A stretch of 48,554 bases of DNA from an uncultured Lachnospiraceae bacterium (GTDB lineage: Bacteria > Bacillota > Clostridia > Lachnospirales > Lachnospiraceae): the NCBI GenBank assembly GCA_902773095.1, contig CACYDA010000170.1, positions 1 through 48,554 on the forward strand, read 5' to 3'. Every line of letters begins with the position of its first letter. Position 1 is the first letter of the stretch. Shown in pieces: positions 25,044 to 41,600 of this stretch. Under the pieces are notes generated by a model. The model did not search any database, was not told the origin of the DNA, and saw only the letters and a list, made by a program, of their open reading frames with translations. The translations under genes and the position numbers were made by a program.

Positions 25044-25058
25044 CAATTGCGTGTATAC

Positions 25059-25153
25059 AATCGAGCAGGCAGGAAACTTGTTCCCTTCCTACTCGCTGTG
25101 CCGCCCCGCATCCGACACAGTCGGAACATTCCTCATGCAGGGCGTGTACATAA
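25059..25153 (-). repeat. Dispersed structured repeat, copy 1 (possible group IIC intron-derived miniature element)
   Basis: Aligns with 41226-41318 (shared AATCGAGCAGG, TTCCCTTCCTACTCGC, CCCGCATCCGAC.CAGTCGGAAC.TTCCT.ATG, GGGCGTGT); immediately 3' of the thrC terminator. Confidence 0.85.
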
Positions 25154-25228: not shown

Positions 25229-26725
25229 TTATATCCCAAGAAAACGCTTTACTACATCTGGCATCTCATCCACTTCACAAACTGTATCATGTAAGACCTC
25301 TGCATTTCTGATTTCCTCTATTGCATTTGGTACTTTCACATTGCCAAGTCTGCTCAACTCATCAACCAATTCGAAATCTTCCATTGCATCATATTTAGAG
25401 TCTATTGCATTCATCACACTTCTTGTGAACTTGAACGGACTTGCTGTTGATGCAATTACTGTTTTATTCTGATCATTTGTCTCTTCTTCGTATTTTTTGA
25501 ATACAGTAGCTGCTACTGCTGTATGTGTATCAATAATATAGCCTGTCTTATCATAAATCTCTTTGATTGTTGCAGCAGTCTCACTCTCACTTGCATAATT
25601 GCCATAAAAGTCTGCAAGCTGTGCTTTCATCTCATCTGTAATCTCATATTTGCCTGTCGAATTTAAAGAAGACATCAGCTCCGTATTCTTCTTGCTATCA
25701 CTTCCTGCAATCTTGTAAATCAATCTTTCAAGATTACTTGAAATGAGAATATCCATCGACGGAGATGTTGTGAGAATAAAATCTCTGTTCTTATCATATG
25801 TACCCGTTGTAAAGAAATCAAATAATACTTTATTCTCATTAGAAGCACAAATCAGTTTATCAATTGGAAGCCCCATATTCTTTGCATAAAAAGCTGCCAA
25901 TATATTGCCAAAGTTGCCTGTTGGTACTACTACATTAATCTTGTCTCCTGCGTTAATCTCACCATTCTGAACAAGCTTTGCATACGCATAAACATAATAT
26001 ACAACCTGTGGAACAAGTCTTCCAATATTGATTGAGTTTGCAGAAGAAAACTGGAATCCGGCTTCATCCAGCTGTTTTGCAAGCTCCTGATCACCAAAAA
26101 TCGCCTTCACTCCACTCTGTGCCTGATCAAAGTTTCCTTTGATGCCAACTACAAATGTATTATCACCTTTCTGTGTAACCATCTGTTTTTCCTGAATCGG
26201 ACTGACGCCACCCTTCGGATAAAAAACAATGATTTTTGTTCCTTCAACATCTGCAAATCCCGCAAGTGCGGCTTTTCCTGTATCTCCAGAAGTAGCTGTA
26301 AGAATGACAATCTCATTCTTTACTGCATTCTTTTTTGCCGATGTCGTGAGAAGGTGAGGAAGGATTGATAATGCCATATCCTTAAATGCAATGGTTGCAC
26401 CATGGAATAATTCCAGATAATAGGCCCCTTCTGCCTTTACAAGTGGAGCAATCTGTTCAGTGTCAAATTTATCATCATAAGCTCTGTCTATACAATTCTT
26501 TAATTCTACCTCTGTAAAATCTGTGAGAAATTCTTTCATAACAGCATATGCTGTTTCTTTGTATGACATACCTGCCAATTCGTCTATCGATACCTGCAAC
26601 TTTGGTATTGATGTAGGTACAAATAATCCTCCATCACTTGCAAGTCCTTTTAAAATAGCCTGTGAAGCTGTAACTGTCTCATCACTTCTTGTGCTTTTGT
26701 ACTGTAAACTCAAAACATTCACCAT
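25229..26725 (-). CDS. thrC: Threonine synthase
   Basis: Y.STR, GLASDGGLFVP, ELFHG.T.AFKD.AL (PLP lysine), ATSGDTG, ANSINIGRL, VPTGNFGN, SPSMDI. Confidence 0.96.
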   Translation of the reverse strand: MVNVLSLQYKSTRSDETVTASQAILKGLASDGGLFVPTSIPKLQVSIDELAGMSYKETAYAVMKEFLTDFTEVELKNCIDRAYDDKFDTEQIAPLVKAEGAYYLELFHGATIAFKDMALSILPHLLTTSAKKNAVKNEIVILTATSGDTGKAALAGFADVEGTKIIVFYPKGGVSPIQEKQMVTQKGDNTFVVGIKGNFDQAQSGVKAIFGDQELAKQLDEAGFQFSSANSINIGRLVPQVVYYVYAYAKLVQNGEINAGDKINVVVPTGNFGNILAAFYAKNMGLPIDKLICASNENKVLFDFFTTGTYDKNRDFILTTSPSMDILISSNLERLIYKIAGSDSKKNTELMSSLNSTGKYEITDEMKAQLADFYGNYASESETAATIKEIYDKTGYIIDTHTAVAATVFKKYEEETNDQNKTVIASTASPFKFTRSVMNAIDSKYDAMEDFELVDELSRLGNVKVPNAIEEIRNAEVLHDTVCEVDEMPDVVKRFLGI

Positions 26726-33546: not shown

Positions 33547-34656
<1,110 letters not shown>

Positions 34657-41225: not shown

Positions 41226-41318
41226 AATCGAGCAGGTGGCGAACTTCTTCCCTTCCTACTCGCCACCCGCATCCGACGCAGTCGGAACTTTCCTTATGTG
41301 GTGGGCGTGTGCCCATAA
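41226..41318 (-). repeat. Dispersed structured repeat, copy 2
   Basis: Homologous to 25059-25153; lies between the T-box terminator U-tract and the thrS SD. Confidence 0.85.
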
Positions 41319-41600
41319 AAAAATCCCTCATGGCACAATTTGCCATAAGGGACGATACTACATCGCGGTTCCACCCATATTATACGAATCATCACTCATC
41401 TGCAAACAAAGTCTGTCCTGTCTCTATTTGCAAATTGAATCACTCATATCTCTCATTCAATGATAACGGAATCACCGGACCGGATTGGGGTCACTCAGAG
41501 GTAGTCTTCAGTATCACTCCGATAAGATGCTCTCAGCAAATACATCTCTCTCTTGAATCTTCTGTGATACTTACTCGTCTCGTCAACGTGTTTGCATATA
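41317..41600 (-). ncRNA. Thr T-box riboswitch (thrS leader)
   Basis: T-box UGGGUGGAACCGCG (41377-41364), antiterminator CGUCCC, terminator 41324-41352 with U-tract, Stem I AGAGA and GCUGAGA motifs, specifier ACC = Thr (41502-41500), CCGUUA motif. Confidence 0.93.

What the first reader, a model, noticed from the sequence alone, without database searches (positions are those of the whole stretch)
25049..25153. ~92-nt terminator-targeting structured element with group IIC intron-like ends: candidate miniature non-autonomous retroelement
Seen (minus strand): TTATGTACACGCCCTGCATGAGGAATGTTCCGACTGTGTCGGATGCGGGGCGGCACAGCGAGTAGGAAGGGAACAAGTTTCCTGCCTGCTCGAT starts a few nt after the thrC terminator stem. 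A diverged second copy starts right after the thrS T-box terminator. Both fold alike: P1 CGCCCTGCAT/ATGCGGGGCG (copy 2 CGCCCACCACAT/ATGCGGGTGGCG, both arms changed), inner TCCGAC-N3-GTCGGA, and a 3' hairpin CGAGTAGG...CCTGCTCG-AT. Copy 1 is followed by TGTATACACGC, a near-duplicate of its own 5' end. Known (recalled, not searched): group IIC introns insert just downstream of intrinsic terminators, start roughly GUGYGCCC.GCAUG, and end in a domain VI GAGAGG...CCUACUCGAU with a bulged branch A. Here that A is a G paired to an extra U, and there is no catalytic domain V or RT ORF. Inference: a SINE/MITE-like family derived from IIC intron termini and spread in trans, or a REP-like family using the same safe-harbour niche.
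Basis: partly seen in the sequence, partly recalled or inferred. Interest (0 to 1): 0.82.

Follow-up and report, generated by a model that had tools for sequence, protein, structure and literature searches.

The report
Terminator-homing mini-transposon with intron-like tail
This 91-letter gene-less folded repeat sits right behind transcription stop signals at 32 of 36 places in this gut bacterium and recurs across Lachnospiraceae; its tail matches a jumping intron, but it is more likely copied by a rolling-circle transposase supplied from elsewhere, and the mover is unproven.

Summary
The repeat is real: 25150-25060 (minus strand), with a decayed second copy at 41315-41227. This genome holds 36 loci, 32 directly behind a terminator-like hairpin (5% of random intergenic sites). 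Relatives occur in 27 of 111 genomes of the family and show strong stem covariation. Copies enter at TTTA|T without a target duplication and stack head to tail. The last ~30 nt closely match domain VI of one short-tailed group IIC intron lineage, which inserts at the same base. Sister repeats share the folded core but carry the ends of terminator-targeting IS91-family transposons found here, which use the same TTTR|T junction; 5'-only fragments outnumber 3'-only about 19 to 1. Best explanation: a non-autonomous mini-element moved in trans by an IS91-type rolling-circle transposase (0.5). Rival: IIC intron machinery in trans (0.22). No autonomous partner with these ends was found, and no candidate helper co-occurs. 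The scan noted this family before in another genome (e1-5248145, e1-5248147) and an IS91-type mini (e1-5140003). No Rfam family or paper was found.

The parts
25060..25150 (-). Mini-element copy 1 (subtype A), 91 nt, TGTACA...CTCGAT
   Evidence: 64.2 bits, E 7e-14; ends set by tandem junctions and intron insertions
25097..25150 (-). 5' domain: P0 (first 5 nt paired, A6 bulged), P1, purine-rich 10-nt loop, P2 hairpin; the core shared with the IS91-type sister repeats
   Evidence: fold; covariation; model hits on sister repeats
25060..25095 (-). 3' hairpin P3 and tail; matches domain VI of a short-tailed IIC lineage with the branch position paired; family tail also ends like E. coli IS91 terIS
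25049..25059 (-). 5' stub of a second, likely older, tandem copy
   Evidence: same pattern at about 10 other loci of the genome
25151..25202 (-). thrC intrinsic terminator (stem 25202-25158, spacer ending in A at the insertion site); likely bidirectional
   Evidence: -31.4 kcal/mol
25229..26725 (-). thrC, threonine synthase, host gene upstream
   Evidence: TIGR00260, 246 bits
24162..25043 (+). Convergent host gene with MshE-type c-di-GMP-binding motifs; not a mobility gene
   Evidence: NF053729
41227..41315 (-). Mini-element copy 2, decayed (7-nt loss in the P1 3' arm), between the T-box terminator and the thrS start
   Evidence: (35.3 bits); no such copy at this site in 10 of 10 congener loci
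41316..41595 (-). T-box leader and its terminator, the target of copy 2
   Evidence: (RF00230 at 41345-41595)

Best explanation
It is a gene-less, hairpin-folded mobile repeat that sits just behind intrinsic terminators at a TTTA|T junction, and it is likely copied as single-stranded DNA by an IS91-family rolling-circle transposase supplied in trans. Shown: dispersal, target, exact ends, head-to-tail stacking, stem covariation, and terminator-targeting IS91-family elements with the same junction whose ends appear on sister repeats with the same core. Inferred: copying would start at the terminator-side end, which is joined to the A of the target, and stop at the 3' hairpin. Because the element starts with T it rebuilds the A|T site, so new copies enter in front of old ones. 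The tail was likely captured from a IIC intron that uses the same site and now serves as the stop hairpin, with the branch A paired off.
For: Base before the element is A in 82 of 96 copies, base after is T in 90 of 96, and the start lies 5-9 nt from the stem in 74 of 86 solo copies. P1 and P2 covary: 216 cells with two-sided change against 70.6 in shuffles, all 6 P2 pairs. The model built on this family finds sister repeats (G006 21, G008 26, G017 12 hits) that share the core but start with an N5-(A/C)(T/C)AGGAAA hairpin. An IS91-family subgroup (NF033538, 324 bits) mostly sits behind terminator-like T runs and starts with that motif; a purine precedes it in 17 of 17 flanks, and T follows the end in 7 of 8 G469 copies. 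Sister copy L367 carries the CCCCTCA hairpin and AGTG..CACT stem of that subgroup's other end. E. coli IS91 ends in TGCCTACTCG on the same strand, as several copies here do. In this genome 9 solo and about 10 tandem 5' pieces stand against 1 3'-only piece. IS91-family elements make no target duplication and move miniature derivatives in trans (passages of PMC13181058, PMC3189936).
Against: This subfamily lacks the N5-ATAGGAAA start motif of the sister repeats and of the autonomous IS91 group. The model does not hit 30 IS91-family loci, and no IS91 gene lies in any locus held outside those fetched for it. The own genome has no PF04986 match. No co-occurrence: 6 of 27 carriers against 20 of 84, and 3 of 27 against 8 of 84 for the terminator subgroup. 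The last four bases, CGAT, are not an IS91-type end (GTTC, CTCG) but are exactly the intron's end. No hybrid with the IS91 start and this tail was found. The excess of 5' pieces could also come from deletions sparing the terminator.
Confidence: 0.5

Rival explanations
1. A SINE-like passenger of group IIC introns: a helper intron's ribozyme and RT would cut the mini RNA out of read-through transcripts at A|U and at CUCGAU|U, and join it to terminator DNA in trans.
For: The tail profile scores 22-24 bits on the best ends of one short-domain-VI lineage, loop included (12-24 across that lineage), against 6-10 on other IIC ends. The A sits 7 nt from the end like the branch A, and T follows like IBS3 (passages of PMC10190682). 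That lineage inserts at the same base: L262 and L269 show terminator-A, intron, then the mini. Its ends are followed by minis in 2 of 2 cases in G418 and 5 of 6 in G419, genomes with 79 and 83 exact starts. A mini in L369 carries the intron's CTTGAT variant with a paired change.
Against: No domain V, exon-binding sites or free branch A; 5' end unlike introns; 5'-intact fragments dominate, the opposite of stalled reverse transcription. IIC ends are in 4 of 27 carriers against 20 of 84. G422, with 4 identical copies, shows no IIC end and only a non-IIC group II RT. The own genome has none. G418 and G419 were chosen because of an intron-mini junction. The minis behind the G419 introns differ from each other, so they are not a fixed 3' cargo; in G501 0 of 2 ends of this lineage are followed by a mini.
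Confidence: 0.22
2. A palindrome-type derivative moved by an IS200/IS605 or RAYT Y1 transposase (peel and paste).
For: IS200 elements here also sit behind terminators and end in GAT or ACT before T; in L327 one lies directly in front of a sister repeat. The P2 tip often reads GC-TAA(N)-GC like their hairpin tip.
Against: IS200 ends keep a CCACC.GC-TAW-GC.GGTGG hairpin that minis lack; the model hits no IS200 end among 24 loci, only the separate mini in L327. No Y1 gene near minis or in the own genome; 19 of 27 against 51 of 84, p 0.49.
Confidence: 0.1
3. An unidentified enzyme that reads terminator hairpins in lagging-strand DNA (another HUH nuclease or RT) moves it, and the IS91 and intron resemblances reflect chimeras formed in a shared niche.
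For: Four candidate helpers all fail co-occurrence. The parts are modular: the same tail sits on another 5' hairpin in G004, and the same core carries other ends.
Against: No recurrent mobile gene in 80 flanks of 2.5 kb; UG26 RT is not associated, 4 of 27 against 11 of 84. Draft genomes lose multi-copy elements, so missing co-occurrence is weak evidence.
Confidence: 0.15
4. A host-selected regulatory RNA or terminator enhancer rather than selfish DNA.
For: Covarying stems, fixed orientation, and RNA runs that hold the stretch.
Against: Positions are not kept between congeners (0 of 10 thrS loci, 0 of 11 tpiA loci); copies decay, truncate and stack; identical copies sit at unrelated genes in G422.
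Confidence: 0.03

Closest known systems
IS91 family (IS91, IS801, IS1294) and the miniature IS801 derivatives of 229-679 nt (PMC13181058, PMC3189936; passages read)
   Same: No terminal inverted repeats, no target duplication, fixed orientation, insertion 3' of a tetranucleotide with T in second place, hairpin next to the end; sister repeats carry the ends of a Lachnospiraceae IS91 subgroup; IS91 itself ends in CCTACTCG on this strand.
   Different: Only 80-92 nt; needs a terminator hairpin 5-9 nt upstream; this subfamily lacks the start motif of the local IS91 group and ends in CGAT; no autonomous copy with these ends was found.
Group IIC (class C) introns, for example the Eubacterium rectale intron (PMC10190682) and the short-domain-VI lineage found here (L239-L288, L329)
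   Same: Terminator target, same insertion base, T on the 3' side, last ~30 nt nearly the same.
   Different: No domains I-V, no RT, branch A paired, starts with T, 5' part unrelated; far smaller than ORF-less introns, which keep the ribozyme (PMC4424553).
Pneumococcal SPRITE and Bacillus bcr1 repeats (PMC3184786, passages read)
   Same: Short structured intergenic repeats of Firmicutes; SPRITE near gene ends, bcr1 with compensatory changes.
   Different: bcr1 has 5-bp direct repeats; SPRITE is itself terminator-like; sequence kinship was not tested.
Helitrons (recalled; only a search listing seen)
   Same: Rolling-circle elements said to enter between A and T, start with T and stop at a 3' hairpin.
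   Different: Eukaryotic, other end motifs, no terminator target; analogy only.

Membership tests
Non-autonomous IS91-family element | No target-site duplication and no terminal inverted repeats | tested here: met
   Junction counts, single-T tandem joints, congener G012 flanks agree with a clean insertion; no exact empty allele was seen
Non-autonomous IS91-family element | Insertion 3' of a tetranucleotide like that of the autonomous element | tested here: met
   TTTTA in 61 of 96 copies; autonomous subgroup TTTA or TTTG in 14 of 17 flanks
Non-autonomous IS91-family element | oriIS sequence of an autonomous element at the target-side end | tested here: not met
   Present in the sister repeats, absent from this subfamily; model has no hit on 30 IS91 loci
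Non-autonomous IS91-family element | terIS: hairpin next to a cleavage tetranucleotide (CTCG or GTTC) | tested here: inconclusive
   Hairpin ends in CCTACTCG as in IS91, but the element runs two bases further, to CGAT
Non-autonomous IS91-family element | Movement depends on the Y2 HUH transposase; single-strand circles | not testable with these tools
   No co-occurrence; needs an experiment
Group IIC intron | Inserted 3' of a stem-loop with short IBS1 and a T at IBS3 | tested here: met
Group IIC intron | Catalytic domain V and domains I-IV | tested here: not met
   No RF00029 in the genome; no Rfam match; length 80-92 nt
Group IIC intron | Domain VI with bulged branch A and AY end | tested here: not met
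   AY end and sequence match, but the A pairs with an added T (44 T-A and 9 T-G of 53; these columns were fixed by the search pattern)
Group IIC intron | 5' GUGYG-type end with domain I stem | tested here: not met
   Starts TGCACA or TGCGCA in 87 of 96; 5' profile has no hit on 13 introns
IS200/IS605 PATE or REP/RAYT | Conserved TnpA hairpin of the local IS200, or a RAYT gene flanked by copies | tested here: not met
Classical MITE | Terminal inverted repeats and target duplication | tested here: not met

The most novel reading that the evidence does not exclude
A bacterial SINE: an 85-90-nt RNA with no catalytic core that hijacks a group IIC intron's ribozyme and reverse transcriptase in trans, using only a domain-VI-like tail, and reaches 80 copies per genome while rebuilding the intron's own target.
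Probability: 0.2. Interest if true: 0.85.

Novelty: new variant of a known kind. Interest (0 to 1): 0.52.

Why it matters
Lachnospiraceae terminators turn out to be a shared landing site where IIC introns, IS200 elements, an IS91 subgroup and these minis insert at or next to the same base and appear to swap ends. If the IS91 reading holds, a HUH transposase reads a DNA hairpin as its target and moves a cargo under 100 nt: a simple test system for rolling-circle target choice and a possible safe-harbour insertion tool for a hard-to-engineer gut family. If the intron reading holds, it would be a SINE-like parasite of group II introns, which I did not find described. Either way the repeat should be masked in small-RNA and motif screens, since its covariation mimics a structured RNA gene.

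Tried and rejected
Rfam: nothing relevant in the window, 7 own loci or 20 other loci. BLASTN of 30 relatives gave 0 because stems covary; the structure model found 6 of 30. Empty alleles within the species: none in 8 contig sets laid on two stretches with 4 copies; four contigs bridge copy 2 with the element in place. Congeners of G422 were too distant for exact junctions; G006 against G008 gave no clean filled/empty pair. The genome's only RT is UG26 and is not linked. The integrase-associated IS91 of G422 has other ends and no terminator target; I first dismissed IS91 on this and reopened it. Fixed 3'-cargo of an intron: rejected, the minis behind introns differ. Strand test on G-T against A-C pairs in P1/P2: 34 to 20, p 0.076, undecided. 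A home-made terminator finder recovered only 13 of 36 loci, so its occupancy figures were not used. Viral contigs: 1 match, not examined. Rows left out: 2 non-Lachnospiraceae chance matches (L097, L141) and copies without a recognisable start before the counts of 96; 53 sequences went into the alignment after removing near-duplicates; the middle of outputs 35 and 119 was cut. Paper searches without a description of this repeat; PMC3733652 had none of my terms. No supplements were read; a repeat catalogue in one could have been missed.

Full report
Observation. The quoted sequence is present on the minus strand. The unit runs 25150-25060 (91 nt), 7 nt behind the stem of the thrC terminator (-31.4 kcal/mol), and folds far better than shuffles (z -4.9). 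A structure model finds it and one more copy in the window, behind the thrS T-box terminator (64.2 and 35.3 bits). Rfam has only the T-box here and nothing relevant at loose thresholds in 27 other loci.

The family in this genome. Iterated profiles give 32 hits at E 1e-3, in at least two subtypes with a common tail; the reversed genome gives 0-1 hits. Merged, there are 36 loci; 32 have a hairpin of -10 kcal/mol or better and at least 5 T in the last 10 nt upstream, against 5.3% of 1500 random intergenic positions. A same-strand gene ends within 400 nt upstream at 28 of 36. The closest copies are 93% alike, and no empty allele appeared in 8 contig sets of the species, so activity here looks old. 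Tandems are common, mostly subtype B in front of a truncated subtype A. Nine solo and about ten tandem pieces keep only the 5' end; one piece keeps only the 3' end.

The family elsewhere. A tail pattern returned 120 loci from species-representative genomes before the scan hit its limit (about 860 estimated); by their titles nearly all of the 80 listed are Lachnospiraceae or unclassified relatives. In 96 parsed copies the length is 80-92 nt, the start is TGCACA or TGCGCA in 87, the base before is A in 82 and the base after is T in 90; 74 of 86 solo copies start 5-9 nt from the last G-C pair of an upstream stem. Tandem joints always carry one T, so the unit is TGCRCA...CTCGAT at an A|T site, or the same shifted by one base. 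In 53 aligned copies P1 and P2 covary strongly: 216 cells with two-sided change against 70.6 in shuffles and at most 59 in slid controls. Relatedness inflates this test, and the tail columns were fixed by the pattern. The model hits 27 of 111 genomes, one per genus. G422 holds four identical copies at unrelated genes; G419 and G418 hold 83 and 79 exact starts. Orthologous terminators carry no such copy in 10 of 10 congener thrS loci and 11 of 11 readable tpiA loci. The closest congener's thrS flanks agree with an insertion without duplication, though not base for base.

The intron link. A IIC lineage starting GTATGACGGG has a short domain VI nearly the same as the tail, loop included (up to 22-24 bits against 6-10 for other IIC ends). 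It inserts after T-run-A (9 of 13 flanks) and before T (30 of 31). In L262 and L269 it sits exactly between the terminator and a mini, and 7 of its 8 ends in G418 and G419 are followed by minis of different kinds, against 0 of 2 in G501. The E. rectale IIC structure paper gives a stem-loop, short IBS1, T at IBS3 and the branch A seventh from the end (PMC10190682, passages); the mini matches these, but its A is paired. The 5' 58 columns give no hit on the first 450 nt of 13 introns, while shuffles reach 6.9 bits. IIC ends are not enriched in carriers: 4 of 27 against 20 of 84, none of the 8 high-copy genomes; the pattern may miss divergent ends. The own genome has no group II intron; its one RT is UG26 and is unlinked.

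The IS91 link. The model also finds sister repeats in G006, G008, G017, G432, G434, G439, G449, G464, G465, G520 and G521. They share the core, lie behind terminators and stack, but begin with an extra hairpin, N5-(A/C)(T/C)AGGAAA, and end in another GAG/AAG hairpin. Y2 transposases occur in 26 of 111 genomes. One subgroup of 380-430 aa (IS91 family) mostly lies behind terminator-like T runs; on the strand opposite the gene it starts CTTT(A/C)TAGGAAA after a purine in 17 of 17 flanks, and the G469 element ends GTTC before T in 7 of 8 copies. Its far end has a CCCCTCA hairpin and an AGTG..CACT stem, both seen in sister copy L367. So the sister repeats are very likely mini-IS91 elements with the same R|T junction as this family. 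A named E. coli IS91 record starts ATCGATAGGAA and ends TGCCTACTCG on that strand; the paper gives CTCG as its end cut, no target duplication, and starts from the target-side end (PMC13181058, introduction and passages). Miniature IS801 pieces move in vivo and its transposase acts in trans (PMC3189936, passages). Two start-like remnants lie behind hairpins in the own genome, on C88 and C53.

What stays open. This subfamily lacks the IS91 start motif; the model does not hit autonomous ends; no transposase flanks any copy; and Y2 genes are not enriched in carriers (6 of 27 against 20 of 84). Its final base matches the intron's exactly. IS200 elements share the niche but keep their own hairpin. 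Draft assemblies lose multi-copy helpers, so these negatives are weak for every rival.

Verdict. A real, old, gene-less mobile repeat of Lachnospiraceae terminators, chimeric in build: a core shared with mini-IS91 repeats and a tail shared with a IIC intron lineage. It likely works like a rolling-circle mini-transposon (0.5); formal IS91 membership fails on the start motif. Intron-driven spread keeps about 0.22. I found no description in eight paper searches; other papers seen as passages were PMC7306698, PMC4424553 and PMC3184786; the Helitron parallel is recalled. The scan had noted the family in another genome. New variant of a known kind; interest 0.52.

Noticed in passing
L001:1040-2550 (G000:C263): Stand-alone UG26 reverse transcriptase with a non-coding stretch upstream that is kept in G006 and G008 (L331, L335); a candidate template RNA. 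UG26 occurs in 15 of 111 genomes.
   Followed up: partly
L454:2540-2790 (G008:C1): A sister repeat was duplicated about 1 kb away together with its terminator and about 90 nt of upstream DNA, with a short shared sequence at the upstream joint; G006 has other DNA there. One case only.
   Followed up: partly
L522 near 880-960; L327:1180-2035: An IS91-type element sits directly behind the end hairpin of a sister repeat, and an IS200 sits directly in front of one: three systems nest at terminators.
   Followed up: partly
L055, L056 (G328:C65): A group II intron lies inside a IIC intron, and the IIC intron ends two bases inside a mini copy.
   Followed up: no
L298, L305 (G004): The same tail on an unrelated 5' hairpin, also behind a hairpin at A|T.
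   Followed up: no
L142, L197, L151, L107, L164: Copies with an extra hairpin inserted in the purine-rich loop, making a three-way junction; L116, L159, L170 and L173 lack the 5' part.
   Followed up: no
L483; L453:14980-15240: Another dispersed hairpin repeat of about 200 nt in G006 and G008; a sister mini tandem sits behind one of its hairpins.
   Followed up: no
G000:C88 near 1733 and G000:C53 near 19116 (positions as counted): Start-motif remnants of the IS91-type or sister repeat behind hairpins; on C53 the hairpin is a lone P3 followed by a T run.
   Followed up: partly
L397 (G014 thrS leader): A sister-repeat fragment occupies the same T-box terminator that holds copy 2 here, likely an independent insertion.
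   Followed up: partly
window 33547-34653: High depth in laid contigs comes from a conserved ilvC-like gene (name from the sequence, not searched), not from a repeat.
   Followed up: yes
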